Below are positions 30,527-63,944 of a stretch of DNA of 64,000 nucleotides, piece after piece (the first letter of the stretch is position 1; each line of letters starts with the position of its first letter). A program made the position numbers and the translations under genes. The notes beneath the pieces were generated by a model that did not search any database, was not told the origin of the DNA, and was given only the letters and a program-made list of their open reading frames with translations. Where the stretch lies: the IMG/VR virus record IMGVR_UViG_3300021387_000032, positions 2,463 through 66,462 of that record. One strand, given 5' to 3'. Origin of the DNA: a virus.

Positions 30527-30552
30527 CATAAAAGAGACTGTAAATTTTGCGA
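30527..30552 (-). promoter_or_regulatory. Conserved phage promoter-like motif upstream of the nuclease-exonuclease-RNAP operon
   Basis: TCGCAAAATTTACAGTCTCTTTTATG matches the 18 cassette motifs. Confidence 0.75.
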
Positions 30553-46382: not shown

Positions 46383-47204
46383 TTAGAAGAGGCTCTGATT
46401 GTTGTAAGTCGGTTCTGCAAAGAACTCAATAACAAGACACGGTTCTCCGCTTGGCGATATCTGTGAGGAGAAGGAAACATCAATCAGTCCGTTATCGATT
46501 CTCCAACCGAGGCTGTCTCCGTATTTAACGCCCTTGAGTCCCATTTCGTAGTAAACCTCATTCAAAGACACATAACACTCGTCAAGAAGATACCGGTTCA
46601 TCTCATTGATCGCCCTTTTTACTGACTCAATATCTGATCTGAAATATCTGTCGGATGCCGCATCATAGCAAAGTGTCCCCGGCTTAACCACAATTATGTC
46701 GTCTTCTACCGGTTCCTTGTCTTTGATACGGTCTTTCGCAACGGCGTCAGAAATTTCCTGCTCCTTCTTTTCACCGAGAATATCCGTAGCATTCTGCTTG
46801 TACAGCTTGTATGCCGTATCAATTCCCGCATAAGCAACCGTCATAGCTGCCAATCGGTTCTTCATCATCGAGTGTGATTTCAACACAAGGAAGATCCCGA
46901 CTGCTGTAGCAACTGTTGTAGGAATATAAAATTTCCAGGTTGTTTTAACGATGTTCTTTGCTCTGTCGAATGTCAGCTTTTTCTTTTCAGTTTCTTCTTC
47001 CTCTTCAGTAGTCTCCTCGATTTCTTCTGTATCTTCTTCCTCGGAAATATCATCCATTTCTTCAATTGCTTTAACCGCTTTTGGTGTCTCGTAAATTGCC
47101 ATAACTGTTGCGAATACAAGACTTCCGAGACCTATCGCTACACACAGTCCAGGTGCATTCTCTTTTGCGAACTTCTTGAGATTTTGTCCGAATGATTTAT
47201 TCAT
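46383..47204 (-). CDS. DUF6353-like protein
   Basis: YVSLNEVY..MGL...LGW. Confidence 0.7.
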   Translation of the reverse strand: MNKSFGQNLKKFAKENAPGLCVAIGLGSLVFATVMAIYETPKAVKAIEEMDDISEEEDTEEIEETTEEEEETEKKKLTFDRAKNIVKTTWKFYIPTTVATAVGIFLVLKSHSMMKNRLAAMTVAYAGIDTAYKLYKQNATDILGEKKEQEISDAVAKDRIKDKEPVEDDIIVVKPGTLCYDAASDRYFRSDIESVKRAINEMNRYLLDECYVSLNEVYYEMGLKGVKYGDSLGWRIDNGLIDVSFSSQISPSGEPCLVIEFFAEPTYNNQSLF

Positions 47205-48222: not shown

Positions 48223-49008
48223 TTACTTGAGATGGTACTCTGCTTCCAGGTAACACGGCTCGAATGGAACGTCAATACAAACACACTCGACATCAGGAGT
48301 CCCATCATCCAGAACACCGACATTAATTATGTAGTGGTTAAAGTCAAGCCAGTAGAGATAGTCATGCTCGTTTCCTACGTCCCAGCCGATCTTATCACCA
48401 TCCTCGGTCTCCTCAAGTCCTAAGAAAATATAAAATTCATTGAGTGTAACGTATCCTCGCAGTACATAGTTACGATTCAAGTGGTATTCAGCATCCATAA
48501 CAGCCTCTATGGTCGACTCAAAATATCTGTCTCCGAACCGATCATAAAACAGTATTTTCTCATTTGACCCGCCGAGTTTTCTGTTGGATGCGCTATAAAT
48601 ACCGCTTGCATAAATATCAGGAATGTCAGCTGTCTCCGCCGCAAGAGCTTCTATGATTCTCTGATGCGCTTCTTCCCCGTAAAGCTCTTTCAGTTTATCT
48701 TTATACAGCTCGTATTGCTTGTGAGATAACATATACGCCGCTGCAAGAGAGGCTTGTTGCTTCTTACCAAGATGATTTGCAAATATAATACACACGATTG
48801 TAGCAATCCCGACACCTATTGCCGGAGCATAATGTCTCGCACACACCTTAACCTCGTCCATAGTAGTCGGCTCTTCAAGCTCGTGAATATCTTTTTGGAC
48901 CTTTTCTGCTTTTCTCGCAGTAAGAATGAAGGTTGCGACGACTCCTGCTGAGGCTAAGACACTGAATATGGTTGGTGCGTGCTTCTCAACAGTCTTTAAT
49001 AAACTCAT
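48223..49008 (-). CDS. DUF6353-like protein
   Basis: GYVTLNEFY.FLGL...IGW. Confidence 0.7.
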   Translation of the reverse strand: MSLLKTVEKHAPTIFSVLASAGVVATFILTARKAEKVQKDIHELEEPTTMDEVKVCARHYAPAIGVGIATIVCIIFANHLGKKQQASLAAAYMLSHKQYELYKDKLKELYGEEAHQRIIEALAAETADIPDIYASGIYSASNRKLGGSNEKILFYDRFGDRYFESTIEAVMDAEYHLNRNYVLRGYVTLNEFYIFLGLEETEDGDKIGWDVGNEHDYLYWLDFNHYIINVGVLDDGTPDVECVCIDVPFEPCYLEAEYHLK

Positions 49009-49810: not shown

Positions 49811-52800
49811 TTAGTTGGAATCACCTCTGTTAATCTTGATCAAGGCATATCGTCTGCCGTCATCATAGTTGCATACCCAGTCGTCTGCGTACATTTTTTC
49901 TTCATTTAATACAATCTCTCCACCGTAATAATGTCTTGTCATAATAGCCAGACAAGATACGAATCCTACCACGATTCCTACGATAAACATCAGAATATAA
50001 ATCACCGCAAGCATAAATTTCTCCTATTCCATTTATGAGGTTTGATACATTGATCGTTAAGACGGTCGATAGCTTCGAAATACTCATGGCTTTTGGCATA
50101 TAACCCCTTGCAATCGTAATAGTCGGCTATCAGAGCTGCTTTATAAAGTTGGATTATGATATGAATATCTTTCTCTCTGGCAAAACAAGAATCTATGTCG
50201 ATCATACATTTCTTAATGCCAAGTTTCTCGTCCAGGTTTTTGCGAGACGGAATATAACCGTTACATGCTCTGTGATATAGAGTATTTATCGGAATACCTG
50301 TTATTTCAGATGCGGTTTTTAAATCGACATACATATCCTCGCTCCTTTCTAATATTCATTTGCAAAAAGTAATGTCGTCCTACTGCGATCCGCTTCGGTG
50401 ATGATCAAAATATCACTGCCCTTGCGAAACCGGTAAGACGACACTATTTGGTCTCCGTATATTACAGCTTCATCGTTTGCTGCTTTGTCTTCCTTGTTCA
50501 CATTACCCCAGTTGCCATACATGTGTTTGTTAAAGGCATCGAGGCAAAAATATAAAAACGACTTATTGGACTCCATCTCGTTAAGTACTTTTGGAGTCGC
50601 AATAACTTCGCCCGATTCAAAGTTTCCAAGCATTATTTCTTTGCGTCCTTTCTATGCGCTAAAATGTTTATAATGTATGCTGATACACCGAACATTAAAG
50701 CTATGCCCGCTAATTTTTGTGTATTATCAATTCTCCGGTAAAGCATCTGGTTAACAATTCGCTGGCGATTAACCGTCTCAATAACTTCATCAATTGCCTC
50801 TCTTGCTTCCTCATCTACGTCCTGTCTGGCAAATATCCCGGAAGCAAGCTTAGCGTCTTTCGTAGTCCAAATTTTTTCGTTGTTCATTTAAGTTCCTCTT
50901 TCTTTTCTCTGATCATATTGTTCCAGGCTTTTCTTGCGACATTATCGTTCTCATGAGCAGTTCTAAATATCGCTTGAACAGAGGTATAAGGCAATTTTCG
51001 CGATAAAATCGGTCCTTTTGTGCCACACGCAGGACAAGTATACCAATCCTCTGTAAGAGTCCAACGATGACTTGGATGCCTCCCACACAGACATTTTTCA
51101 AGCGGTATCAGTTTCTCAGGCTTTTTCGATAAGTAATATCCAAGCTCTTTGCAATACTCCTTAAGATCTTCGTATGGAATATCTTTGATCGGATTGTTGT
51201 TATTCATTCATCTCCTCCTAAAATATCATCAAGCCAATCCTGATCTCCGAACCGGCGTGACATAAACAAGCCGTATTCCTCGTATACGTCATTTTGTTTT
51301 GCCAATCGTTCAAATATAACTCGCAGGGCTATATACTGAGCAACCGATAGCTTTGAAGATCCGGATTCTAAATTGCAAATATTTTGTCTTGAGAGTCCGA
51401 GAAATCTTCCAATAGCCGCACCTTTTACATTAACAAGACCGCGAATACGTTTCATTTCTTGCTGAAACTTAATTATTGTAGGATTGTCTTTAGTCATAAC
51501 TTCTACCTCGGTTTCGCTCCTTTCGAAAAAATATCATTCATCGTCAATGAGTTCTGATAACTCTTTTTCAAGATCGCCAATCTTACATTTTAATTGATTA
51601 ATTCGCTCCGTTTTTTCGAGTCTTTCAATACACGATTTGTCCATAAAGTCGTGCGTATTTATTTGGTATGTTTTATTGCGTTCTTTATCAATTCCGTAAT
51701 ATTTAAACGTGACAATATAACCACATAAATATGCGATTCTTACTATGTCATCAAAAGAAAAACTATTGCGTAGTATTTTGTTGTTGAAATACGTAATGGT
51801 TGTTCCTAAAAACATAGCCGCTTCTTTTCTGGAAATGTCAGAAGCCTTCAGCAATGATATGACTATATCTGATCGTGGACGATCGTTATATGTTATGCCA
51901 AATGTGGATAAGATTGGTACGTTAGGTAATGATTTGATCATCACAGCAGCTCCTTTTCAATAATGTAATAGCGTTTTGTTTCATGTTCGTCAGTTGAAGT
52001 TACTACAATCTCATATATGTGATCCAGAGCCTTTTCTTTTTCTAAAACTTCGACTTTAGGTTCATCTATCTCTCCAGGATCATATGGTTCCATAAGATCA
52101 ATCACAGCTTGATCAGCTAATTCTCGTGCCTTGTCTTTTGCTTTATCAACGGTAGAGCATACATCCATTAAATAATAAGATTCAGGATCGCCGCCATAAC
52201 TGCAATAATCTATCCAAATACATTCCATCACAACATATACTTTCATCGTATTACTCCTTTCTTTCAAAAAATTGTAGAAGTGATCTGATTTGATCGTGTG
52301 ATCTCCGCATTCCCTCAATTTGTTTCCTGAAAATATCATCATCGCAATTGAAATCTATCTTAATTGCAATAATGTCGTGTGGTTGATCATCGTTCATTCG
52401 TAATAGCGGCGACAATTCAAACGTAACAACTGCATCATCATCGAATATCCATCCCGCTTTCTCGAATGTTTTTATCGGATGCAAACCGAGTTCCATTAAT
52501 ACTTCATTTAAGAATAAATATCCCTGCCTTTTTAAAAGCACGTTGCAACGGTTTTCAATGTGACGCACAAACACCGCATTTCCATTTCCATCAGTCCAAT
52601 ACGGAGAGCTCTTGTCAAAGAATACTGAATATTTGTTTAATTCGATCATCTCTTTACTCCTTTACTTTAACGATAATATCCGGATTCCAGACGCAAATAG
52701 AGTCGACATCCCATGTATAAAAGATATTAATATCATGGAAGGTCTGCCAATCATTTGACAAAATTACTTCCATGGCATCGTAACGATCGTAGATCAAAGG

Positions 52801-53888: not shown

Positions 53889-54161
53889 TTATGATAACTT
53901 AGTCGGCGCTATAGAAATTACAATTGCTCTACCGATGTCGATCAAAATATCATCATTCATATCGAAATGAAACTCGTAGGAATGATAGTTATCCTTTATC
54001 GTCTGTACGAGTGTTGATTGCTCGTTCTCAGCCAATACAGTGACCACTATCCTTCTTGTGAGTTTCGATTCGAGTATGATAATATGATACTCATCTAACT
54101 CAGTAGTTATCATTGTTTCTGTTACTCCAACGTGCTTTCTTGGTAATTCGAAAAATTTCAT
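53889..54161 (-). CDS. Cassette 8 ORF, paralog of 57089-57349
   Basis: Shared leader DNA and protein pattern. Confidence 0.7.
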   Translation of the reverse strand: MKFFELPRKHVGVTETMITTELDEYHIIILESKLTRRIVVTVLAENEQSTLVQTIKDNYHSYEFHFDMNDDILIDIGRAIVISIAPTKLS

Positions 54162-54269
54162 AATTTCCTCCTTTTGATTACCACAAAATATCTTTTGTCG
54201 TAAAAGAGGCTGTAAATTATGCGAAAATACCCTAAAACACTCTAAAATACCCTAAAATCAGCCAAAATC

Positions 54270-54370
54270 GCCGAGAAGCCACTTAATAGCCCCATAGAGC
54301 GATTTATGTGCTTTTTCGACCCGTAGGTTCTGTTTTAAATTAACTCGCCTTAAATCGCCTCTCAGAGCCT
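54270..54370. repeat. Intergenic palindromic element, copy 3 of 3
   Basis: gccccatagagcgattta ... taaatcgcctctcag. Confidence 0.6.
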
Positions 54371-54470
54371 CGTTTTTCAACTACTTCCCTAAATTTTGCA
54401 TGATTTCCGGCAAAAACAAAGAGAACCTGCAAAATATCACAGATTCTCTACGATTTTTCATGTTACTTTT

Positions 54471-54740
54471 TTATTTCTCTTCGCACAATTTCGAAACCGC
54501 TGCCACTATCATATTATAAATAATACAGATTTCTTCATCGTCCAGAGAATCAACCGTTTTTCTGATAATAGCGCCTGCTTCTTTATAGTAGTCTTCAACG
54601 TTTTCGTCAAAAACTCTTTCCAAAAGAATACGGCACACAATATGATCGCTGGTAAAACTCTCTTTCATATACTTCAGAAATGTTTCGTTTACCATAATAT
54701 AGGTAGACGTTGCTTCTAATGTGTCTTTGAGATTTTTCAT
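54471..54740 (-). CDS. Cassette 9 ORF
   Basis: RBS; cassette context. Confidence 0.7.
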   Translation of the reverse strand: MKNLKDTLEATSTYIMVNETFLKYMKESFTSDHIVCRILLERVFDENVEDYYKEAGAIIRKTVDSLDDEEICIIYNMIVAAVSKLCEEK

Positions 54741-54845
54741 TTTTTACTCCTTTCAAATAGCATGAAATAATTCTCATAATAGAAGCTGTATTATTTGCGA
54801 AAAAGAAAAGAGAACCTGCAAAATATCACAGATTCTCCTGTCTGG

Positions 54846-55103
54846 CTAATGCTTTCTTCTCTCAGCTCTTATTTTCTGTACCATTCTCCTCCACTCAATA
54901 TATGGTTTACCTTTCAAAGAACCCGCCTTATGTTTTGAAATAAGCAAATATCCTTCCGGGCATTTTCTGAAATAGAAATCCTTTATTTGTAGAACTTTGC
55001 AATGTTCTAACATTGTTTTGGCTCTCTTCATTTCCTCTTTATCCCTAAGTGTGATATAATACCTATTACATCTCAGTCCAAGTCTTTCTCCAGTAGTTTT
55101 CAT
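54846..55103 (-). CDS. Cassette 10 ORF (basic)
   Basis: RBS; cassette context. Confidence 0.7.
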   Translation of the reverse strand: MKTTGERLGLRCNRYYITLRDKEEMKRAKTMLEHCKVLQIKDFYFRKCPEGYLLISKHKAGSLKGKPYIEWRRMVQKIRAERRKH

Positions 55104-55226
55104 ATCAAGCTCCTTTTAAAATATAACTGTAACTATTAGCCATAAAAGAGCTTGTAAAATCTGCGAAAGACTGGACAAAACCAAAGAGAGCCTGTAGACT
55201 CTGCTACGGGCTCTCCGGTTAGATTT

Positions 55227-55448
55227 CTACTTAATTACTGTCTCAGTGCCATCCCGTGCAATAAACTTATTTTCGATTTCGAAATTGACTCCTTTCTTGA
55301 TGATTCGATTTGTTGCTACGGTCGTGCCAATGATTGATCCAATAAGTCCTGCTAAGCAGCACCATGCTCCAATACCGGCCATTCCTACTAATAAAATACG
55401 ATCATCACTTTCCATAGAGTTCCATTTCTTCTTCAACTTCTTAATCAT
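55227..55448 (-). CDS. Cassette 11 ORF, single TM
   Basis: RBS; cassette context. Confidence 0.7.
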   Translation of the reverse strand: MIKKLKKKWNSMESDDRILLVGMAGIGAWCCLAGLIGSIIGTTVATNRIIKKGVNFEIENKFIARDGTETVIK

Positions 55449-55510
55449 TTTTGACTCCTTTCAGTAAAGTAAATATAACCTTTCATAATAGGAGCTGTAT
55501 TATTTGCGGA

Positions 55511-55735
55511 TCATTCGCGAGTCTCTACCCTGACAACCACTTTCTTGGATGTCTTGAGTTCACGCATATCCTTGGATAGTTCGAGCATCAGATAGTCATT
55601 TCCTTCTTCATCTGGGTATATCTTGATGACTCCCACATCCTTAACACCTTTTTTTCGTCCTAAAATATAACCAAAGCCGAACCATACAATCACCACTGCG
55701 ACGTATATAATCCCTGTAAGTGCTACGTTACTCAT
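55511..55735 (-). CDS. Small membrane protein
   Basis: N-terminal TM. Confidence 0.65.
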   Translation of the reverse strand: MSNVALTGIIYVAVVIVWFGFGYILGRKKGVKDVGVIKIYPDEEGNDYLMLELSKDMRELKTSKKVVVRVETRE

Positions 55736-55736
55736 A

Positions 55737-56069
55737 TCATGCTCCTTTGTGTGCTATAAGCTGAGCTGCGCGGTTCTTGATCTTCTCATCATATTTGAAG
55801 TCAAAGCCCGTGCTCCCGTCAAATCCGTCAAATTCCTTGTAATATGGTGCTTTCTTTGAAATATCAGGAAATTCCTGTGAAAGCCATACCAGTTCCTTAG
55901 CCCACTGAGACCACTGAGCGTCACTTACAACACTATCGTCCATCTCGTAGTAAATATAACTATGTACCAGGATCTGACGGCGTCTCTGGGAGATCTTTGC
56001 AAGTATTGCTTCGTCCCGATCCTCATAAATATCATTGTCAAGTAGTTTGTCTAAATCGAGTTTTGTCAT
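55737..56069 (-). CDS. Stand-alone NAD-dependent DNA ligase N-terminal (domain Ia)-like protein
   Basis: HSYIYYEMDDSVVSDAQW resembles LigA H...YY..D.P.ISDAEYD. Confidence 0.6.
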   Translation of the reverse strand: MTKLDLDKLLDNDIYEDRDEAILAKISQRRRQILVHSYIYYEMDDSVVSDAQWSQWAKELVWLSQEFPDISKKAPYYKEFDGFDGSTGFDFKYDEKIKNRAAQLIAHKGA

Positions 56070-56182
56070 TTTCTTCCTCCGGGAATTTTCCCTAATACTA
56101 AAATATCACCTGTTACGGTCTCCTGCGTACGGCAAAAACAAAAAGAGACCCGTGAGTTGTCTCACAAGTCTCCCAGAAAATA

Positions 56183-56419
56183 TCATTCGTATCTTACTAC
56201 AAGTCTGTGCCCTTCTTCAAAATCTTTATAAAGTGCCCCATATTCTTTGGATTCGTTTGCAAGCCATTTGAGATGCTTCTCTATAGTGTCATGTTTTATC
56301 GCTCTTAATAGAAGCTTTCCTCCGGCCCATATACCCATGAGTCCAAATATTTTATAGAGCGCATATTTTCCGTTCTCTTGTTCCATCGCACGTTTTCTTT
56401 CCTCTTGTTTTGTAGTCAT
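56183..56419 (-). CDS. Cassette 12 ORF
   Basis: RBS AAGGAGG. Confidence 0.7.
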   Translation of the reverse strand: MTTKQEERKRAMEQENGKYALYKIFGLMGIWAGGKLLLRAIKHDTIEKHLKWLANESKEYGALYKDFEEGHRLVVRYE

Positions 56420-56518
56420 GCTAACCTCCTTGTTAATTAGAATGATAATGTTCCATAAGAGTGTTTGTAAATTTTGCTAATCAGGTGGACTACTCACATG
56501 CGAAATAATTTGATAATT

Positions 56519-56701
56519 CTAATAATATATTTCACGTAACCACACTCTGTTATCGCCGTCTGGTCCTTGTACGTCAACAAGTTCGTGTTCGTCACAGATA
56601 AGATCGTGAGAAATCATTACTATTGCTTCCTTTGGTAATTCAGTTAGTAGTTCAATTAATTCTTTTACTGTCATGGGTTTCCTCCTAAAATAGTATGACA
56701 A
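56519..56701 (-). CDS. Small hypothetical protein (MTVKELIELL type; true start probably internal)
   Basis: Common phage motif; RBS GGAGG. Confidence 0.6.
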   Translation of the reverse strand: MSYYFRRKPMTVKELIELLTELPKEAIVMISHDLICDEHELVDVQGPDGDNRVWLREIYY

Positions 56702-56762
56702 GAATCATTTGCTAAAAGAAAAAGAGACCTACAAAATCGTAGATCTCTTTCGCTGCTGCGGA

Positions 56763-56987
56763 TCAGCTATGCACGGAACACCAAGTGGTTACCAAATCAT
56801 CGTCATCCGGATGATGGTTTCCGATTCTACGGTTGTACATACACGTTCCTTCAGTGCCATAGCCATGAGGACAAGGCATTTTACACCTTGAGTACTCACT
56901 GTCCATGTCTGAAACACGGATGTATTCTCCGATTTTCTCATTGAAAACCGTTCCGGCGTAGATGTAGATATCTTTTCCGTTTATCAT
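56763..56987 (-). CDS. Cassette 13 ORF, Cys/His-rich
   Basis: RBS AAAGGAGGTGA. Confidence 0.7.
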   Translation of the reverse strand: MINGKDIYIYAGTVFNEKIGEYIRVSDMDSEYSRCKMPCPHGYGTEGTCMYNRRIGNHHPDDDDLVTTWCSVHS

Positions 56988-57088
56988 AATCTGATCACCT
57001 CCTTTCGTCCATTAAAGAGCCTGCAAATTTTGCGGATAGAGAAAAGCCAAAAGGAGCTGCTATGAATATAACAACTCCTTATAAGTCC

Positions 57089-57349
57089 TTAGATCTTCTC
57101 GATTTCGATCAAGATTTCTCTCTCATACACAAATATTCTTATAGTGTCTTTTTCGAATTCGAATGTAAAAACGTTTCCATAATGCTTGCCGATCTTGTCC
57201 GAGAGGGTCGATACCTCTGTCGGTCCAAATATCGTGACCATCACGCGATCGTACAATTCGCTCGAATCAGATATCACTATCCAATATGTTCTGTCTTCCA
57301 TTGAAATCTCGACTTCACGAGTGTTTTTTGGAACTTTAATTGTGTTCAT
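57089..57349 (-). CDS. Cassette 14 ORF
   Basis: RBS; paralog of the cassette 8 ORF. Confidence 0.7.
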   Translation of the reverse strand: MNTIKVPKNTREVEISMEDRTYWIVISDSSELYDRVMVTIFGPTEVSTLSDKIGKHYGNVFTFEFEKDTIRIFVYEREILIEIEKI

Positions 57350-57399
57350 TTTAGTCCTCCTTTTGACTACAAAATATCTTTGTCGTAAAAGGACCTGTA

Positions 57400-57807
57400 T
57401 TATTTGCGAGCCCTACTCAAAAGCCAAAAGAAGCGTCTATATAAGTCGTAATATTTGTCTTTTCCACACGGTACAGGACTTCTTGCATTAAGCTTGTCGA
57501 ATGATAGTCCTTCCGTAACTCCGGTTAAAATATAACTTCCTATGACCTGGTCTGTACGCTTGGCAGCCTCTTCTATCATCTGAATACGGTCTGAGTAAAA
57601 CATCCGTTTAAGAGCTGTCTTTTCAGTACTGCTTGAGGTTGTTTTCTCACCTGGGGTTATTATTGATGAAGTATTAATCCCATCCAAAATATCACGCTTT
57701 TTCTTCCACAAATTGTATTGCAGACAGAAATGCTTAAGCTCGTAATACCTGTGCTTGTCGATCCAGTAAGGGTTCTTCTTTGAGACTTCTGCTCGAATAT
57801 CACTCAT
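57400..57807 (-). CDS. Conserved putative transcriptional regulator (ArpU/RinA-like)
   Basis: KHRYYELKHFCLQY...YRRFFWLL. Confidence 0.55.
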   Translation of the reverse strand: MSDIRAEVSKKNPYWIDKHRYYELKHFCLQYNLWKKKRDILDGINTSSIITPGEKTTSSSTEKTALKRMFYSDRIQMIEEAAKRTDQVIGSYILTGVTEGLSFDKLNARSPVPCGKDKYYDLYRRFFWLLSRARK

Positions 57808-58055
57808 CGTCCTTCTCCTTTCCAAAAGAATCCTGTTTCCTCGTACAAAAGCTTCGGGGAAATATAAAAATTGATGCGCCCGAATCTGCTGTCGATCTGA
57901 TCTACGCTTGTGACGAGTTCTCCGTTCCTGGTAGCTTTCCCAATCGGCAGCCAGCCAGCAATGATTCCGGCTCTTACCCACGAAGCGTCTTTACCATATA
58001 CCTTTGCAACAACCGATACCGGCACTGAACCTTGTGTGAATTCCTGCATTTGCAT
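57804..58055 (-). CDS. Winged-HTH excisionase / Cro-like protein
   Basis: VPVSVVAKVYGKDASWVRAGII. Confidence 0.55.
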   Translation of the reverse strand: MQMQEFTQGSVPVSVVAKVYGKDASWVRAGIIAGWLPIGKATRNGELVTSVDQIDSRFGRINFYISPKLLYEETGFFWKGEGR

Positions 58056-58140
58056 TTACCTCCTTCTAAGAGGCATTGTATAACAGTAATCAGAAAATAT
58101 AAAAAAGAAACAGGTGGGGTTTAGTTAAGGACAAAAAGAA

Positions 58141-58211
58141 AAGAAATTGTTGGGATTCGAACCCAAGTCTCATAACCGAAGTTATGCGTGTTCCCACTAC
58201 ACCACATTCTT
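58141..58211 (-). ncRNA. tRNA-like RNA with a C(UUCG)G tetraloop in place of the anticodon loop (cassette 15)
   Basis: D arm GTGT-AGTGGGA-ACAC; arm CATAAC-TTCG-GTTATG; T arm TTGGG-TTCGAAT-CCCAA; imperfect acceptor stem; no encoded CCA. Confidence 0.75.
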
Positions 58212-58287
58212 TCCATAATAGAACCTGCAAATTTTGCGAATTTTAGAAAAGAAAAAGAGCCCTACAAAGTTGTAGAGCTCCGTTCTC

Positions 58288-58536
58288 TCAAACGCCCCAT
58301 ATAGCGTATCTGTAAGGGACGCAGAAATCATGGATATCTTTCTGAATCTTTTTCAGCTTTCTTCTGGTTGCGAAGAAAGTGATTTTATAGCTTGTCCCAT
58401 CCTCTGTCATACGGGCTAATTCAACCCCGTTATAATAAAGGATCATACAAACCTTATCCATCTCTTCTTCATCAACCCAGATGTTGCTGTCCATATCTTC
58501 CCAATATCTTTTTAATTCTGCTATTAATTTACCCAT
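58288..58536 (-). CDS. Cassette 16 ORF
   Basis: RBS AGGAGG. Confidence 0.7.
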   Translation of the reverse strand: MGKLIAELKRYWEDMDSNIWVDEEEMDKVCMILYYNGVELARMTEDGTSYKITFFATRRKLKKIQKDIHDFCVPYRYAIWGV

Positions 58537-58628
58537 TTCATACCTCCTATTTATCTGGTTATCGTTTGCATAAGAGACTCTGTATTTTTTGCGAAGAATA
58601 TCGCTTGAATAAAAAAGAAAAGAGGCGG

Positions 58629-58772
58629 TTAACCTCTCTTCCTAAAGTCTTCGCTAACTTTTCCAATAATACACAAACATGCTATAGTTGCCGATAGATA
58701 GACCATAAAATATCCGGCTGTTTTAAGTCCTAATTTCATGATCCACCACAACACTTTAAACATTGTTCTCAT
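58629..58772 (-). CDS. Cassette 17 ORF (47 aa, hydrophobic, not in ORF track)
   Basis: MRTMFKVLWWIMKLGLKTAGYF..., RBS GAAAGGAG. Confidence 0.65.
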   Translation of the reverse strand: MRTMFKVLWWIMKLGLKTAGYFMVYLSATIACLCIIGKVSEDFRKRG

Positions 58773-58847
58773 ATTAATCACTCCTTTCCATTAAAGAGTC
58801 TGTATCTTTTGCGGAAAAATATCCCGGACAAAAAGAAAAGAGAAGCA

Positions 58848-59075
58848 TTAAAGCTCCTCCACTCTTCTCCAATACGGATCTCTTGTTGCGTATTCAATCC
58901 GGTATTTTGCTATTCTTCCACAGTCCTTAGCTGCGGTTGTCGCTACACTTGCAACACCGATGATACCATTGAGCACCGCGTAAGATTCCATAATCTTCGC
59001 AGCGCCGTAGTTCACGGTTGCTTTGAATGCGATTCCGCCGATTTCTTTTCCTGCTTCTTTAATAATATTCAACAT
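58848..59075 (-). CDS. Cassette 18 ORF
   Basis: RBS GGAGG. Confidence 0.7.
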   Translation of the reverse strand: MLNIIKEAGKEIGGIAFKATVNYGAAKIMESYAVLNGIIGVASVATTAAKDCGRIAKYRIEYATRDPYWRRVEEL

Positions 59076-59096
59076 TTTTCTACCTCCAAATATTTA

Positions 59097-59432
59097 TCAA
59101 AAGACGTATTTTTTCCATAACAGAACTTGCAATTTTTGCGAATTTTTCCACGTTCTCATGGTGAGTTCACAAGGATAATCCTCATAACCCAAAATATCTG
59201 GAGTTATTATGCCTTCTATCACACCTTGTATCAATTCTGCTTCGTAGCGCATGTACGGAATAATATAATCAGGAAGTTCCCGGTGTAATTTGTTACAGTT
59301 TTTGCACTGCCATCTTTGTACCAGAATCTCTCTTGTTTCCCGATTCTTAGTCCTGACTAATCGTTTTACCTTGTCATACTTTCTTAAATATCCACCGCAG
59401 ACTGGGCATTGTTTTTCTCCTTCTCTAATCAT
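59097..59432 (-). CDS. DUF6431-like Zn-ribbon protein
   Basis: CPVC...RWQCKNC..LHRELPD..PY.RY. Confidence 0.7.
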   Translation of the reverse strand: MIREGEKQCPVCGGYLRKYDKVKRLVRTKNRETREILVQRWQCKNCNKLHRELPDYIIPYMRYEAELIQGVIEGIITPDILGYEDYPCELTMRTWKNSQKLQVLLWKKYVF

Positions 59433-59488
59433 ACAATCACCCACTTTTATGGTATCATAATTTCGAGGTGTTGGAAGGAGTAAATATA

Positions 59489-60616
59489 ATGGCAAAAAGA
59501 AAACCTAACAAAAGGAGGAGACTACCTAATGGTTTTGGACAAATCAGCGAACTTAAAGGAAAGAATCTCAGGAAACCGTTTCGTGCAATGGTCACCGTTG
59601 GTAAGAATGACAAAGGACGACCTATTTGCAAACTGTTAAAGCCGGAAGCGTATTTCGAAACTTACAACGGGGCTTATGCTGCTTTGCTCGAATATAACAA
59701 AAACCCGTATGAGAAGATGATCGAGATGACCATGACCGAGCTATATGAGAAATGGTCTGACTGGTACTTTGACAAGATTACTGAATCGTCTAAGAAGAAT
59801 ATCATTACAGCCTGGAAGTACTGTCATCCGCTGCATAATATGAAAGTCACAGAGATCCGTCCGATGCATATACGAGACTGTATTGAGAATGCTTACAGGG
59901 ATATCGATGGCGAGAAACAATACGCATCAGCAAATGTTAAAAGCCGTATGAAAAGCTTGTGTAATATGTTATTCGATTACGCTGTTGAGTATGATGTGGT
60001 TGAGCATAACATAGCTCGTGAGATGAAGCTTTCGACATACACAAGACCAGAAGCTAAGGATCACCATATGCCGTTTACTGACAGTGAGATGAAAATACTT
60101 TGGGAACACACAAATATCCCTTTTGTCAAGATCATCCTTATACACTGCTATTCAGGATGGAGACCGCTTGAGATGTGCAGTTTGAAAGTAGTCGACACAA
60201 ATATAACCGAGTGGACTTTTAAAGGTGGCGTAAAGACAGAATCAGGCAAAAACAGAACAGTACCGATACATACGAAAGTAAGACCTTTTGTGGAAGAGTT
60301 CTATAACCTCGCAATAAGTCTTGGGAGCGAATATCTTTTTAATGTAATCCGGGAGCATTCTTTCGAGTATGATGATCTCTCGTCCTATTCCTCGTATCGG
60401 TATTATTTTAAAAAAGTAGTGGCCGAGTTAAATATCAACCCCGACCACAAACCGCATGATTGCCGTAAACATTTTGTCACGATGGCTAAAAAGAATAAAG
60501 TTGATGAGTATGCGATCAAATATCTTGTTGGACATAAGATAAACGATTTGACCGAAAGAGTATACACATCACGAGATTTCGATTGGCTTAGAACCGAACT
60601 GGAAAAACTAAAATAG
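59489..60616 (+). CDS. int: Tyrosine integrase
   Basis: SGWR, KT..G..R.VP, HDCR, LVGH, VY catalytic residues; N-terminal LPNGFG arm-binding region. Confidence 0.93.
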   Translation: MAKRKPNKRRRLPNGFGQISELKGKNLRKPFRAMVTVGKNDKGRPICKLLKPEAYFETYNGAYAALLEYNKNPYEKMIEMTMTELYEKWSDWYFDKITESSKKNIITAWKYCHPLHNMKVTEIRPMHIRDCIENAYRDIDGEKQYASANVKSRMKSLCNMLFDYAVEYDVVEHNIAREMKLSTYTRPEAKDHHMPFTDSEMKILWEHTNIPFVKIILIHCYSGWRPLEMCSLKVVDTNITEWTFKGGVKTESGKNRTVPIHTKVRPFVEEFYNLAISLGSEYLFNVIREHSFEYDDLSSYSSYRYYFKKVVAELNINPDHKPHDCRKHFVTMAKKNKVDEYAIKYLVGHKINDLTERVYTSRDFDWLRTELEKLK

Positions 60617-60847
60617 ATTGTAGGACTTGTAGGAATAGCTGATATGTATGGTGTAGGCTTGATGTAGGAATAATGTATGAATATCCCAGGTTTGACTACT
60701 TTTAAGTACTTCTTAGAACCGCCCAGTTCTTTGTAGTTTCTACACCGTGTTATAAGTCTCTCAGGATTTCATCGTCTTCTTCAGAAGATAAAACCCACGA
60801 AATATCATTCCTACACCGGTCTAAATGTAGGAATAATGTAGGAATAG
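60617..60847. other. Putative attP with arm-type integrase sites
   Basis: TGTAGGAATA at 60628, 60663, 60826 and 60837; inverted 9-nt copy at 60807-60815; variants at 60619, 60652 and 60674. Confidence 0.7.
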
Positions 60848-60854
60848 ACCGCTA

Positions 60855-61358
60855 TTAACCCCACAGGACCACTTTTCTGGACGATAAAGACGCTGGAATA
60901 TCTATAAGTCTTTGGTTGGACGATCCCCGGAATTTAAGCATGAGACTCTTTAGCTCAAGCACAAATTCACCATCAACCAGCACATCCAGATTAGACAACA
61001 GTTCTACCCGGTCCGTATCAGCTTTAAGCAGCTCCTCATACAAATATCCAGTGTAACACCAAATCGACTTTTCAGGAAATCTCTGCCGGGATTTTTTCAC
61101 AAATCGATTTAATACTTTACTGTTCTCAGGCTCGAATGGATCACCGCCGAGAAGTGTCAGACCTTCAATGTATGGATTAGCTAATTGAGAGAATATCATG
61201 TCTTCTACGCTCTCGTCAAATAGTTTACCATAATTAAAGTCCCACGTCTCGGGATTAAAACATTCTTTGCAATGATGTCTGCATCCGCTTACAAAGAGTG
61301 ACACTCTGACCCCAGGTCCGTTCGCAATATCATAATTTTTTATCTCAGCATAATTCAC
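60855..61358 (-). CDS. nrdG: Anaerobic ribonucleotide reductase activating enzyme (radical SAM)
   Basis: NGPGVRVSLFVSGCRHHCKECFN, LLGGDP, DVLVDG, FRGSSNQR. Confidence 0.92.
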   Translation of the reverse strand: MNYAEIKNYDIANGPGVRVSLFVSGCRHHCKECFNPETWDFNYGKLFDESVEDMIFSQLANPYIEGLTLLGGDPFEPENSKVLNRFVKKSRQRFPEKSIWCYTGYLYEELLKADTDRVELLSNLDVLVDGEFVLELKSLMLKFRGSSNQRLIDIPASLSSRKVVLWG

Positions 61359-61480
61359 AATTAACACCTCACAAAATATCGAGACCGCCCCTTAAAGAGA
61401 GGTCAGACTTAGGAGCGGTCTCAAAAGAGTTAGAAAGGAAAAATAATGAATATAACTTGTGAGCTATTTATTAAGGCCCT

Positions 61481-62869
61481 TTATTTCTTGCTTAAAATAT
61501 CATAAAGTCTCTTAGCGACCCTTGCTACATCTGTGCGAGTCGCCGGTCTCTCATAAGCGCCGTCTTTCATGATGCCGTTTTCATAAGCCCAATCAAGAGC
61601 AGGAGTCGCATCTTTAGCAGGTTTCTTAAGGCCCTCTTCGTAATACCAGTCTTTGATAATCTGGAGTACTTCTTCTTTAGTCATATCATCCTCCTCGGCA
61701 GCATCTCCTTTTGGCACCTCGACTAACCAGTAGTATTTCGCCTGATACTGCATTTTTGCCACAGGTGCTTTTCTGCGACTTGCCTTTGTGCTGTTTGGAT
61801 CAAATATCAGTGCATCATCCCCGTCAAGCCCGTACCAAAGGATAAAGTGACCAGAGCTTGTCCAATCGCCTTTTCCCATACAAACGACAACCCAATGACC
61901 AAGTCTAACGGCGTTAAATGCTGTGGCGTTTACGGAGTTTGCAAGATTTGCTCCGTGGTATACCGTTGAGCTGTTAAGCTGGTTGCATTTAATACCGTAT
62001 TTAGCAAACTGAGGAACGAAGTATGAGTAGTAAGTTCCCTGATGGTATGCTTTATAGCCGTTATCAAGAGCCCATTTTGAAGTAGTCGCAGGAGTAACAC
62101 TTGAGTCGGCGATACCCGCAATAACCATAGCAGCACAGGTTGGTCCACATCCGGCAGTACCTATTGTAGATGTCTCATCCTTAATACCGTATCTGATAGA
62201 CTTCCATCTGGAATCGGTTTGCAAATAATCAACCGGTGTGATGGCTTTTTTCGAAATGTTCTGTTTACTTGTGAATTCCGAATACCAGTATGAGAAGTCA
62301 ACTTTGGTATTAATTCCTGCAATAGTTCCTGACGAAGTGTACTGCCACGCATTAATTGTCATTGGATAGACCGGCTTTGAAGCTGAGTACTTGGCGCACC
62401 AGATGAAGTACGGAAGAGATGATGCATCAAGATTTGACTTAAACCAGCTTTCTGACGCATATACTCCAGGCACAAGTCCAGCTTCTTTGATCCTTTCGCA
62501 AAAGGCTCTTACGGCACTTGTACGGACGGTCTTACTCAGAGAATCGCTTCTACCAGATCGGCTGATGTTTGAATATTCTGAGTCAATAATAATAGGAAGG
62601 CTTAGAGAATAGCTTGAAATGTTTTTCAGAACAAATTCAGCTTCTTCTCTGCCTTCTTTATCGTTAATAGCGGTGGAGAACCAATATACACCGAATGGAA
62701 TATCATGAGTAACACAGCCTCTTATGTTTGCGAGAAACTGCTTGTCCATTTCAAGTGTTCCCTGACCATATCCACGATACCCGAGACGGATCATCACTCC
62801 ATCGATCTTAACTTTGCTCCAGTCAATACTTCCGTTATGGCTTGATACATCGATTACCGATTTTGCCAT
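61481..62869 (-). CDS. Endolysin: GH25 muramidase plus C39-like Cys peptidase
   Basis: IDVSSHNG, IIDSE, WQYTS; YLQTD.RW...GCGPT...GHF...DPN. Confidence 0.85.
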   Translation of the reverse strand: MAKSVIDVSSHNGSIDWSKVKIDGVMIRLGYRGYGQGTLEMDKQFLANIRGCVTHDIPFGVYWFSTAINDKEGREEAEFVLKNISSYSLSLPIIIDSEYSNISRSGRSDSLSKTVRTSAVRAFCERIKEAGLVPGVYASESWFKSNLDASSLPYFIWCAKYSASKPVYPMTINAWQYTSSGTIAGINTKVDFSYWYSEFTSKQNISKKAITPVDYLQTDSRWKSIRYGIKDETSTIGTAGCGPTCAAMVIAGIADSSVTPATTSKWALDNGYKAYHQGTYYSYFVPQFAKYGIKCNQLNSSTVYHGANLANSVNATAFNAVRLGHWVVVCMGKGDWTSSGHFILWYGLDGDDALIFDPNSTKASRRKAPVAKMQYQAKYYWLVEVPKGDAAEEDDMTKEEVLQIIKDWYYEEGLKKPAKDATPALDWAYENGIMKDGAYERPATRTDVARVAKRLYDILSKK

Positions 62870-62870
62870 A

Positions 62871-63065
62871 CTACTCACCTGCTTCCGGCAGACCACCGCC
62901 AATAGAAGTCAGCAGTGATAATATTCCAGCGCCAAGAGATGTACCGATCACAGTGACCCAGTCTACTTCTGTTATCATGACCGTTGTGGGGATCATTGCT
63001 ACAGCAGTCTGGCAGATAGTTTTTAATGCTCTGATACCGGCTGCTTTCCAAAACGCTTTGTTCAT
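62871..63065 (-). CDS. Holin (r1t type)
   Basis: WKAAGIRALKT..QT...SLLTSI.GLPE. Confidence 0.85.
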   Translation of the reverse strand: MNKAFWKAAGIRALKTICQTAVAMIPTTVMITEVDWVTVIGTSLGAGILSLLTSIGGGLPEAGE

Positions 63066-63388
63066 TCCTGCCGTACCTCCAATTTTTCAACTTCTGACAT
63101 GGTCGTTTGAAGATGCCCGTTTCCGCCTAATCGTTTATAAGCATGAAACATTTCTTTTATTGTATCTTTATCTTCAAGTGAAATATAACCCTGGCGAATA
63201 TACTCTTTGCCAAGTTGTTTCACCCTATCAATCATCATTACTTTGAGGGCTTCAGTCTGGGCATTCATTGCCTCTGACGATTTATCTTCTTTCTGCCATT
63301 TACGTTGAAGAACGGCATGAAATATCATCATAATTCCAGAACCGATACCCGCCCCCAAAAGCCCGATAATAAGATTTACCACTTCCAT
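63062..63388 (-). CDS. Lysis-cassette membrane protein (holin-like)
   Basis: N-terminal TM; Y..LGGNG motif. Confidence 0.65.
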   Translation of the reverse strand: MEVVNLIIGLLGAGIGSGIMMIFHAVLQRKWQKEDKSSEAMNAQTEALKVMMIDRVKQLGKEYIRQGYISLEDKDTIKEMFHAYKRLGGNGHLQTTMSEVEKLEVRQE

Positions 63389-63401
63389 TAAATATCAGTC
63401 C

Positions 63402-63944
63402 TTAAGCTTCATTCATCCATCTTGTGATCATTTTACGTTCTTCTTCTGTCTCAGCAGCGTCGAGCATCTTTTCAAGATGGTTCATTACTCTCGTTCTGGA
63501 ATAATCGGTTCCGTCAGAATGACTCATATATGATCCATTTCGATTCATATTGTTCATTCCATTCGGATTATAGTTAGAGCCATTATCGGAATGTCTTATG
63601 TTTCCTCTGTAATTTCCTGAATATCCGGTACGGTTGTGCATGATCATACCGTCCGTATAACTCGGATCATAGTAAGGCATTCTTGTGCGATCATAATAGC
63701 TTGGCATATTTCTGCCGTGCATCATTTCTTCGTCTTCGTAGTAAGACGCCTCATCCATAGCGCATGTAGTAATAACGTCTTTAATAGCATCAAACATCTC
63801 ACCCATGGCTTTGAGTTCTTCGATACTAATATCATTTTTCGCTCTTACATCGCGAATAGTCTGTTCGAGCTGATCGAACATGAGTCGCTTACCGTCGTCA
63901 AGGATATGCTTTTCTCTTTCGTCAAATTTTCCCATGCTGATCAC
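63402..63944 (-). CDS. Hypothetical protein (acidic, M/N/Y-rich)
   Basis: RBS GAGGAGGTG. Confidence 0.65.
   Translation of the reverse strand: MISMGKFDEREKHILDDGKRLMFDQLEQTIRDVRAKNDISIEELKAMGEMFDAIKDVITTCAMDEASYYEDEEMMHGRNMPSYYDRTRMPYYDPSYTDGMIMHNRTGYSGNYRGNIRHSDNGSNYNPNGMNNMNRNGSYMSHSDGTDYSRTRVMNHLEKMLDAAETEEERKMITRWMNEA

What the first reader, a model, noticed from the sequence alone, without database searches (positions are those of the whole stretch)
58133..58239. Anticodon-less tRNA mimic carried as cassette cargo
Seen: right after the conserved motif there is a cloverleaf with U8, an intact D arm (GG in the loop), a 4-nt variable loop and a canonical T arm (TTCGAAT). The anticodon arm is a perfect 6-bp stem closed by the extra-stable C(UUCG)G tetraloop. 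The acceptor stem is imperfect, there is no encoded CCA, and a U tract follows. Inference: it cannot decode but keeps the tRNA elbow. It may be a decoy for anticodon nucleases, T-box riboswitches, Rel or tRNA-processing enzymes, or an RNA processing signal. A decayed tRNA-Arg(UCG) missing one loop base is the alternative.
Basis: partly seen in the sequence, partly recalled or inferred. Interest (0 to 1): 0.8.

Follow-up and report, generated by a model that had tools for sequence, protein, structure and literature searches.

The report
Anticodon-less tRNA look-alike in gut phages
This gut phage encodes a small RNA with the body of a transfer RNA but a plain hairpin where the codon-reading loop should be, and it belongs to a conserved, apparently undescribed family in phages and prophages of gut Clostridia whose role is still untested.

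Summary
Rfam's tRNA model scores it 45.9 bits (cut-off 29). ARAGORN calls a tRNA with a two-base anticodon. The anticodon arm is a 6-bp stem with a UUCG loop, 16 nt instead of 17.

It is not a lone decayed gene. It lies directly behind one of 19 copies of a phage promoter-like motif. Homologs occur in Faecalibacterium phage FP_oengus, in 55 of 80 related IMG/VR loci and in about 42 of 80 prophage loci of gut Clostridia. All 73 distinct members abut the same motif. None of 71 encodes CCA. In 56 of 71, three or more leader bases pair with the U-rich trailer.

Acceptor, D and T stems covary, and so does the tertiary 15:48 pair. The anticodon arm varies from 11 to about 33 nt. Only 1 of 58 distinct forms could be a normal anticodon loop.

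This fits a selected, non-decoding tRNA-shaped RNA, not a mimic of any particular anticodon. Whether it acts in trans or as a leader for downstream genes is open, and expression is untested.

Earlier scan notes describe comparable anticodon-less tRNA-like RNAs in other phages, but no look-alike of this sequence.

The parts
58256..58281 (-). Hairpin plus T run that ends the preceding cassette (gene 58288-58536)
   Evidence: Terminator-like site, 11 pairs, 5 G-C, followed by TTTTCTTTTC
58214..58239 (-). Copy of the 26-nt phage promoter-like motif. Its last base is also the first base of the RNA's closing helix
   Evidence: 19 matches in the window, all on the minus strand, against 0.21 expected; this copy has 0 mismatches. 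The same motif abuts all 73 distinct homologs
58142..58211 (-). tRNA-shaped body (positions 1-73 of the tRNA model)
   Evidence: RF00005 45.9 bits, full-length match; ARAGORN tRNA-???; family model R2 58.6 bits, the only strong match in the 66-kb genome
58188..58202 (-). D arm: 4-bp stem, loop with GG
   Evidence: cmscan alignment; D arm highly conserved in the family
58171..58186 (-). Hairpin in place of the anticodon arm: 6-bp stem, UUCG loop, 16 nt
   Evidence: Sequence; RNAfold of this segment; two-base 'anticodon' by ARAGORN
58150..58166 (-). T arm: 5-bp stem, loop UUCGAAU
   Evidence: cmscan alignment; also picked up by the hairpin scan
58125..58141 (-). U-rich trailer. Its first bases pair with the 5' leader (58212-58214) and lengthen the acceptor helix
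   Evidence: MFE fold pairs the first 8 nt of the transcript with the trailer. RNAalifold predicts the extended helix on 58 sequences. Three leader-trailer pairs in this copy
57804..58055 (-). First ORF downstream (83 aa, phrog_6058, unknown function). No promoter motif of its own between it and the RNA
57400..57810 (-). Second ORF downstream (136 aa, phrog_11237, unknown function). Used as the marker to find related phages

Best explanation
It is a small RNA gene of the phage: a tRNA-shaped RNA that cannot read codons. Shown: it belongs to a conserved family, and each member starts 0-3 nt after a phage-specific promoter-like motif. The family keeps the acceptor, D and T stems and the tertiary contacts that make the tRNA L-shape. 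In place of the anticodon arm it carries a hairpin of almost any length. It encodes no CCA. Its first bases pair with a U-rich trailer, giving a closing helix of about 10 bp. Inferred: the phage's own two-barrel RNA polymerase probably starts transcription at the last base of the motif. The closing helix plus U tract stops or slows a share of transcripts, so the RNA is made in excess over the genes behind it. Because selection keeps the elbow and the acceptor end but not the anticodon arm, the RNA is probably read by a host factor that recognises tRNA by shape. Candidates are RNase P, RNase Z, the CCA-adding enzyme, or an enzyme that modifies the tRNA end. My committed reading is that it is released as a stable RNA of roughly 75-90 nt and acts in trans as a mimic of the tRNA body, not of any anticodon.
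For: tRNA-model score and ARAGORN call. Homologs: FP_oengus 47.9 bits and MT835485 42.2 bits, both with short anticodon arms; 55 of 80 IMG/VR loci; 46 of 80 genome loci matched, about 42 of them with a whole tRNA-like body. Covariation: 93.7% of cells paired against 71.1% in shuffles and 40-63% when slid; 20 of 22 pairs change on both sides. RNAalifold finds 19 pairs on its own, 17 with compensatory changes. The tertiary pair 15:48, which is not in the model, is G:C in 45, A:U in 19, U:A in 5 and G:U in 2 of 71. U8, A14, G18, G19 and the T loop are conserved in 85-95% or more. The anticodon arm spans 11-21 nt in the viral set and longer in prophages; 1 of 58 forms is canonical. The promoter motif ends -2 to +6 nt from the RNA in 73 of 73. 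There is no CCA in 0 of 71, and 56 of 71 have three or more leader-trailer pairs. The unit is portable. In relatives it lies 2-4 kb downstream of the phrog_11237 gene, usually before phrog_10740. Here it lies upstream of phrog_11237, and this phage lacks phrog_10740. FP_oengus, MT835485 and L056 have a new promoter right behind it, so there it stands alone.
Against: No expression data: no RNA run holds this sequence, so the start, the ends, processing and CCA addition are all untested. In 68 of 73 members no further promoter motif lies within 200 nt downstream. In the viral members inspected, an RBS follows the U tract within about 5-30 nt. That fits a purely cis-acting leader equally well. 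In some relatives the same slot holds a closed structured RNA that is not tRNA-like (L027 type), lacks the T arm (L072, L118, L129) or has a large insert (L083). The tRNA shape is therefore not indispensable in every lineage. This copy has the weaker acceptor (5 of 7 pairs), and its fold is not more stable than shuffles. Pairing of leader with trailer is expected, from general knowledge, to hinder RNase P. No partner protein was identified.
Confidence: 0.45

Rival explanations
1. It is a purely cis-acting 5' leader. The closed tRNA-shaped structure at the very 5' end, together with the U tract, sets how much of the downstream message is made (attenuation). It may also set how that message is cut or protected: a processing site for tRNA end-processing enzymes, or a 5' stabiliser. 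It would have no role as a free RNA.
For: 68 of 73 distinct members have no further promoter motif within 200 nt, and an RBS usually follows within about 5-30 nt. 56 of 106 model matches are followed by the same small gene, phrog_10740. The slot keeps its closing helix and U tract even where the inside is not tRNA-like.
Against: A plain hairpin would do for attenuation or 5' protection. Yet the elbow nucleotides and the 15:48 tertiary pair are kept by selection. The downstream gene differs between lineages (phrog_10740, DUF6353, phrog_8582-like, phrog_6058). Three viral members (L008, L007, L056) have a promoter motif immediately behind the RNA, and two prophage members have one about 128 nt away; 5 of 73 in all.
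Confidence: 0.3
2. It is the RNA partner of a protein encoded next to it. It would act as an antitoxin-like or cofactor RNA made in excess from the same promoter, as in type III toxin-antitoxin pairs or the AbiF-RCd22 pair of a Clostridioides difficile prophage.
For: The layout is promoter, structured RNA, U tract, small gene. phrog_10740 is often the downstream gene. The AbiF-RCd22 precedent is from the abstract seen. An earlier scan note (e1-158638) describes a tRNA-shaped leader in front of a HEPN gene.
Against: This phage has no phrog_10740, and neighbours vary. The phrog_10740 model is a four-helix bundle with no informative match to solved structures: best Foldseek E 0.15, none at or below 0.001. 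It gave no significant match to any solved structure, nucleases included. The genome holds a single RNA copy, not a repeat array.
Confidence: 0.1
3. This is the first reader's leading idea: a decoy for factors that read the anticodon loop or need codon pairing, such as anticodon nucleases (PrrC, RloC or PARIS-type), T-box riboswitches or Rel.
For: Phage tRNAs are known to counter tRNA-cleaving defences (passages of PMC13728456). The element sits among small early-type genes.
Against: The known cases use decoding tRNAs with near-normal anticodon loops. Here the arm varies in length and sequence (3- to 8-nt loops in the viral set, arms of 11 to about 33 nt), and UUCG is private to this phage. 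A mimic of a given anticodon loop should conserve that loop.
Confidence: 0.05
4. It is a tRNA gene in decay with no function, or a copy of a host tRNA kept as an integration site.
For: One lineage (L014, L022) still has a 17-nt arm whose loop would read as anticodon UGU, so descent from a real tRNA is likely. Some lineages have lost the T arm. The phage has an integrase 1.3 kb away.
Against: Compensatory changes in all stems and in the 15:48 pair across 71-73 distinct sequences show continued selection on the RNA fold. The fixed junction with the promoter holds in 73 of 73. Direct repeats that look like integrase arm sites lie beside the integrase gene at 60651-60846, not at the RNA.
Confidence: 0.05

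Closest known systems
'Pseudo-tRNA' and tRNA-like stable RNAs of phages (for example T5 RNA1 and the kayfunavirus pseudo-tRNA, both known to me only from earlier scan notes e1-6099429 and e1-145118; many phage genome papers list 'pseudo-tRNA' calls, search listing)
   Same: Phage-encoded, tRNA body kept, anticodon loop abnormal, function untested.
   Different: This is a large family with demonstrated covariation. It has a fixed junction to a phage-specific promoter motif, a leader-trailer closing helix, no CCA and an anticodon arm of free length. It occurs in temperate phages of gut Clostidia rather than in lytic coliphages.
mascRNA from MALAT1 (Rfam RF01684). Its processing by RNase P, RNase Z and the CCA-adding enzyme is recalled, not from a call
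   Same: tRNA-shaped RNA with a reduced anticodon arm, joined to a longer transcript, non-decoding.
   Different: Eukaryotic, and sits at the 3' end of its host transcript. The match here is only 21.9 bits against a gathering score of 42.5, so it is not a member.
tRNA-like module of bacterial Y RNAs (YrlA; PMC4201824, listing and start of abstract only)
   Same: Bacterial or phage non-coding RNA that mimics the acceptor, D and T parts of tRNA.
   Different: Y RNAs carry a long Ro-binding stem and lie near a Ro gene. No Y-RNA family matched. No Ro gene turned up among the roughly 35 ORFs I scanned; most ORFs were not scanned.
C4 RNA of phages P1/P7 and CI RNA of P4 (recalled: small phage RNAs cut by RNase P from the leader of the operon they control)
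   Same: Small structured phage RNA made from the 5' leader of a transcription unit.
   Different: Those act by antisense pairing of their loops. Here the only variable loop can be a UUCG tetraloop. No C4-family match appeared in Rfam.
Streptococcus sRNA SpF41 (Rfam RF02435)
   Same: tRNA-like T arm and closing helix followed by a U run. It was the second-best Rfam match (28.5 bits).
   Different: Below its gathering score of 52, so not a member. I found only genome-survey mentions of it (search listing).
RCd22-AbiF of a C. difficile prophage and type III toxin-antitoxin RNAs (abstract of 10.1101/2025.04.15.648962)
   Same: Layout of promoter, non-coding RNA and downstream protein gene in a Clostridia prophage.
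   Different: None of the 13 flanking or array ORFs scanned against Pfam matched an Abi_2/HEPN family, and no abiF RNA family appeared in the Rfam scans. No repeat array; neighbours not conserved.

Membership tests
tRNA (Rfam RF00005) as a structural class | Cloverleaf scoring at or above the gathering score of 29 bits | tested here: met
   45.9 bits, model positions 1-71 of 71
Decoding (functional) tRNA | 5-bp anticodon stem with a 7-nt loop, U33 and a purine at 37 | tested here: not met
   16-nt arm, 6 bp plus UUCG. ARAGORN reports a two-base anticodon. Only 1 of 58 distinct family forms meets it
Decoding (functional) tRNA | Seven-pair acceptor stem and a free single-stranded 3' end ending in CCA, encoded or added | tested here: inconclusive
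   5 of 7 pairs here, and 6-7 of 7 in 61 of 71 relatives. No encoded CCA in 0 of 71. The trailer pairs with the leader. CCA addition cannot be tested here
Decoding (functional) tRNA | Aminoacylation by a synthetase | not testable with these tools
   Anticodon-independent identity marks are not conserved: 3:70 is A-U in 16, G-U in 14 and other types in 11 of 41; -1:73 is A-U in 25 and G-C in 15 of 41
Oengus-like phage tRNA-shaped RNA (family defined here, models R1 and R2) | Starts within a few nt of the phage promoter-like motif | tested here: met
   The motif 58214-58239 ends one base before the model start. 73 of 73 distinct members lie within -2 to +6 nt
Oengus-like phage tRNA-shaped RNA (family defined here, models R1 and R2) | Conserved D and T arms with the 15:48 tertiary pair, and a non-canonical anticodon arm | tested here: met
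   G15:C48 here; the family has 69 of 71 complementary. R2 scores 58.6 bits
Oengus-like phage tRNA-shaped RNA (family defined here, models R1 and R2) | Leader-trailer extension of the acceptor helix, followed by a U-rich run and no CCA | tested here: met
   Three leader-trailer pairs, nt 74-76 UUU
mascRNA-menRNA (RF01684) | Score at or above the gathering score of 42.5 bits | tested here: not met
   21.9 bits, E 0.062
SpF41 sRNA (RF02435) | Score at or above the gathering score of 52 bits | tested here: not met
   28.5 bits, E 0.022
Type III toxin-antitoxin RNA | Tandem RNA repeats upstream of an endoribonuclease toxin gene | tested here: not met
   One copy in the genome. The downstream ORFs have no Pfam match. 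The commonest neighbour in relatives models as a four-helix bundle without a nuclease match. No tandem-repeat finder was run
Phage attachment site inside a tRNA gene | A tRNA 3' part identical to a host tRNA, lying at the prophage junction next to the integrase | tested here: inconclusive
   The whole cloverleaf is present and its two halves covary. It lies 1.3 kb and three cassettes from the integrase. Candidate arm repeats lie at 60651-60846. Prophage junctions were not mapped

The most novel reading that the evidence does not exclude
The RNA is an early counter-measure made by the phage's own polymerase. It would be a free mimic of the tRNA body that occupies a host factor which recognises tRNA by its elbow and acceptor end. 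Examples are a defence toxin that modifies or cuts the tRNA 3' end, or the tRNA end-processing enzymes themselves. The anticodon arm would then be free to vary because it plays no part. That would make it an RNA decoy of a kind not yet described for phages.
Probability: 0.15. Interest if true: 0.8.

Novelty: new variant of a known kind. Interest (0 to 1): 0.58.

Why it matters
Phage genomes are full of 'pseudo-tRNA' calls that are usually dismissed as decay. Here one such call belongs to a family kept by selection in a widespread lineage of temperate phages of gut Clostridia; the marker protein has 458 relatives in IMG/VR and 174 in the genome collection. Selection acts on exactly the parts that make the tRNA shape and ignores the part that reads codons. 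That separates 'tRNA shape' from 'decoding' in a natural system. It also points to a host or phage factor that reads the shape. One member sits in a cultured phage-host pair (FP_oengus on Faecalibacterium prausnitzii), so the question can be tested at the bench. As a by-product, pairing between the first transcribed bases and the trailer places the transcription start of the phage-specific promoter within about 1-3 nt of the end of the motif. That is useful for studying the phage's unusual single-chain RNA polymerase.

Tried and rejected
Near-identical DNA: megablast of 57000-59500 against the phage collection gave no match. An exact 22-nt stretch of the T arm and acceptor gave 0 hits in IMG/VR.

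First motif pattern: it had one N too many and gave 0 matches. The corrected pattern was used.

Expression: no RNA holder was listed for 54000-63900. Two runs of unknown kind hold about 0.3 of the words, and three metatranscriptome runs hold next to none.

Whole-genome survey with R2: the model also scores ordinary host tRNAs at about 50-70 bits in the three genomes tried. It cannot count the family in bacterial genomes without the promoter context, so I dropped the survey. One search failed because 'of' needs a G handle; one search replaced it.

Neighbour protein: phrog_10740 was folded from a 22-sequence alignment (pLDDT 89.9, four helices). Foldseek against the PDB gave nothing at E 0.001 or better (best 0.15, Dps-like helical bundles). 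It gave no functional lead. Pfam found nothing for the two ORFs behind the RNA or the one before it.

Identity elements for anticodon-independent charging (G3:U70, G-1:C73) occur in some members, including G3:U70 here. They are not conserved, so I rejected an alanine- or histidine-accepting reading.

Literature: (seven full-text searches) found no description of this family. The supplements of those papers were not seen. Passages of PMC11662646, PMC13692257 and PMC13728456 concern host tRNA fragments or decoding phage tRNAs, not this.

Scan notes: a look-up by sequence found no look-alike.

Full report
WHAT IS THERE. The window is bases 2463-66462 of a 66,462-bp IMG/VR virus record with direct terminal repeats, rated complete. 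Almost all long ORFs lie on the minus strand. Pfam and PHROGs find a terminase, portal, tape measure, tail proteins, endolysin, an integrase (59468-60616, plus strand) and an NrdG-like protein. There is also a 922-aa protein (26861-29629) with sub-threshold matches to the two-barrel RdRP family (PF05183; 20.8 bits against a cut-off of 23.8) and several HTH families, some above and some below their cut-offs. From memory, this resembles the YonO type of single-chain RNA polymerase. I did not test that further.

THE FEATURE. The feature lies on the minus strand. ARAGORN finds one gene in the window, 58141-58212, 'tRNA-???' with a two-base anticodon. Rfam's tRNA model gives the window's only gathering-level match: 58142-58211, 45.9 bits, full length. 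The alignment and the sequence show:
- U8;
- a 4-bp D stem with GG in the loop;
- a 4-nt variable region;
- a T arm with loop UUCGAAU;
- a 16-nt hairpin (6 bp plus UUCG) where the 17-nt anticodon arm should be;
- an acceptor with 5 of 7 pairs;
- no CCA, and a U-rich trailer.

The single sequence is not unusually stable: z = -0.94, and 31 of 200 shuffles fold at least as well.

SETTING. A 26-nt motif occurs 19 times in the window, always on the minus strand, against 0.21 expected. Each copy sits 20-60 nt before an RBS and ORF, usually after a hairpin with a T run that ends the preceding gene. The copy at 58214-58239 is followed directly by the tRNA-like RNA instead of an RBS. Next come the U tract and about 85 nt, then an RBS and two ORFs (phrog_6058 and phrog_11237, both of unknown function), with no further motif. 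Part of the 85-nt spacer resembles the ordinary leader of another cassette (repeat D17). The RNA unit therefore looks inserted between a promoter and a normal leader; this is inference.

RELATIVES. The 136-aa protein finds two phages by tblastn, in three GenBank records: Faecalibacterium phage FP_oengus (two accessions) and an unannotated faecal phage, MT835485. Both carry a tRNA-model match (47.9 and 42.2 bits). Each lies directly behind the same motif and before a U run, and each has a 14-nt anticodon arm. FP_oengus has no tRNA annotated in the 8.3-kb stretch shown, which covers the element.

With an alignment of the marker protein, IMG/VR holds 458 relatives, of which the best 80 loci were kept. 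The genome collection holds 174, again with 80 kept. These are prophages in Lachnospiraceae, Ruminococcus, Blautia, Hungatella, Clostridium leptum, Christensenellaceae and others.

A covariance model from the three seeds matched 55 of the 80 IMG/VR loci. Each had one match, always on the strand of the marker gene, giving 41 distinct sequences. A second model gave 49 matches in 46 of the 80 genome loci. By my reading of the alignment:
- L157 (three matches) and L135 are ordinary host tRNAs;
- L118 and L129 lack the T arm;
- about 42 loci carry the whole tRNA-like body.

The remaining 25 IMG/VR loci gave only weak matches.

IS THE FOLD SELECTED? On the 41 distinct viral sequences:
- 93.7% of cells form standard pairs, against 71.1% after shuffling and 40-63% when partners are slid;
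- 20 of 22 pairs show changes on both sides;
- 0 of 500 shuffles reach any of the five measures.

That alignment was fitted to the model, which favours it. However, RNAalifold run on the same model-fitted alignment predicted the acceptor, D and T helices without being given the model's structure: 19 pairs, 17 with compensatory changes. The Levitt pair 15:48 is a tertiary contact and not part of the model. It is G:C in 45, A:U in 19, U:A in 5 and G:U in 2 of 71 distinct sequences. U8, A14, G18, G19, the variable-region consensus and the T loop are conserved in 85-95% or more of sequences. The L-shaped tRNA core is under selection.

THE ANTICODON ARM. In the viral set the arm runs from 11 to 21 nt, most often 14 (16 of 41), with loops of 3-8 nt. 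In prophages it can also be a longer hairpin of about 31-33 nt. Of 58 distinct D-to-T segments, only one fits a 5-bp stem with a 7-nt loop, U33 and a purine at 37. That is the form in L014 and L022, whose loop would read as anticodon UGU. UUCG occurs only in this phage. Within sub-groups the stem is kept by compensatory changes, so 'some hairpin' is required but no particular loop.

FAMILY HALLMARKS.
- The motif ends -2 to +6 nt from the model start in 73 of 73 distinct members.
- None of 71 has CCA at 74-76.
- 34 of 71 have 7 of 7 acceptor pairs, 27 have 6, 8 have 5 (this copy among them) and 2 have 4.
- 56 of 71 have three or more further pairs between the 5' leader and the trailer, and 68 of 71 have at least two.

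Because these leader bases covary with the trailer (columns 2-3 with 106-107), they must be in the RNA. That places the transcription start within about 1-3 nt of the end of the motif; this is inference.

WHAT LIES BEHIND IT. In 68 of 73 members no further motif lies within 200 nt, and an RBS usually follows the U tract within about 5-30 nt. In 5 of 73 another motif lies within 200 nt downstream. In three of these (FP_oengus, MT835485, L056) it follows immediately, so the RNA stands alone there.

Of the 106 model matches outside the window (ordinary tRNAs and partial matches included), 56 are followed within 520 nt by a phrog_10740-like gene. Others are followed by DUF6353/phrog_2152-like or phrog_8582-like genes. 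This phage lacks phrog_10740. Its DUF6353 copies and its phrog_8582 gene lie 5-14 kb away. The RNA unit therefore sits at a different place here than in its relatives. Its neighbours are not conserved, but its promoter junction and U tract are.

EVIDENCE THAT CUTS THE OTHER WAY. In nine nearly identical IMG/VR loci (L027 type) the same slot holds a closed three-way RNA without a recognisable T loop. L072 lacks the T arm, and L083 keeps only the T arm beside a long insert. In all of these the slot still runs motif, closing helix, U tract, RBS, phrog_10740. The most constant parts are thus the closing helix and the U tract, which favours a cis-acting leader or attenuator. There are also no expression data.

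READING. What is shown: a conserved family of non-decoding tRNA-shaped RNA, tied to a phage-specific promoter motif, with a closing helix and U tract. What is inferred: that it is made by the phage polymerase, is partly terminated at its own U tract, and is recognised by its tRNA shape.

I commit to a free, stable mimic of the tRNA body acting in trans (0.45). The reasons are that selection keeps tertiary contacts a plain leader would not need, and that the unit moves between gene contexts and sometimes stands alone. A purely cis-acting leader is the main rival (0.3). An RNA partner of an adjacent protein, as in the AbiF-RCd22 pair (abstract), is possible (0.1). However, the commonest neighbour is a four-helix bundle with no informative structural match, and it is absent here.

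Known phage counter-measures of that kind use decoding tRNAs (passages). Plain decay and an attachment-site copy are disfavoured by the covariation and by candidate arm repeats next to the integrase.

COMPARISON AND NOVELTY. The kind is known but unexplained: phage 'pseudo-tRNAs' and tRNA-like stable RNAs (search listing; earlier scan notes e1-145118 and e1-6099429, which I did not check). Rfam has no family for it beyond the generic tRNA model. mascRNA and SpF41 match below their thresholds. Seven full-text searches found no description. I rate it a new variant of a known kind. It is of moderate to fairly high interest because it is widespread, clearly selected, and testable in a cultured phage-host pair.

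Noticed in passing
window 60651-60683 and 60825-60846: Direct repeats of an 11-nt unit (three copies, 77-100% alike) lie between the end of the integrase gene (59468-60616, +) and the NrdG-like gene (60855-61367, -). They look like integrase arm-binding sites, so the attachment site is probably here.
   Followed up: no
window 26861-29629 (-): A 922-aa protein has sub-threshold matches to the two-barrel RdRP family (PF05183; 20.8 bits, cut-off 23.8) and several HTH families, some above and some below their cut-offs. It is a candidate single-chain polymerase that reads the 19-copy motif. One motif copy (30527-30552) lies outside the cassette array, upstream of this region.
   Followed up: partly
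window 44024-44959, 46383-47204, 48223-49008 and 52251-52649 (-): Three full copies and one partial copy of DUF6353 / phrog_2152 (unknown function, N-terminal membrane-like segment) are spread through the cassette array.
   Followed up: no
L027 5369-5454, with the same RNA in L078, L017, L021, L023, L042, L043, L045 and L020: In these relatives the slot of the tRNA-like RNA holds an 86-nt closed three-way RNA. It has a D-arm-like first hairpin and no T loop, between the same promoter motif and U tract and before the same gene. It is either a derived form or a replacement.
   Followed up: partly
L014 4607-4694 and L022 4585-4672: These are the only family members with a 17-nt arm whose 7-nt loop would read as anticodon UGU (Thr). 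They still have the A/U-rich extended acceptor and no CCA. They may be a relic of the tRNA the family came from, or a member that can still decode.
   Followed up: no
L121, L122, L123, L128, L146, L115, L137, L119 (prophage loci): In these members the anticodon arm is replaced by a longer structured hairpin of about 31-33 nt. Two recurrent types each occur in several unrelated-looking loci. The arm seems to serve as an insertion site.
   Followed up: no
L028, L015, L018, L041, L046 (IMG/VR) and L097, L104, L110 (genomes): An extra G+C-rich hairpin with a T run lies between the tRNA-like RNA and the next RBS, with no promoter motif in between. The downstream gene would depend on read-through of two stop signals.
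   Followed up: no
L099, L112, L146 (record titles): Three loci with the marker protein come from bins labelled Parabacteroides, Tannerellaceae and Muribaculum, whereas all the others are Clostridia. These are probably binning errors rather than a wider host range.
   Followed up: no
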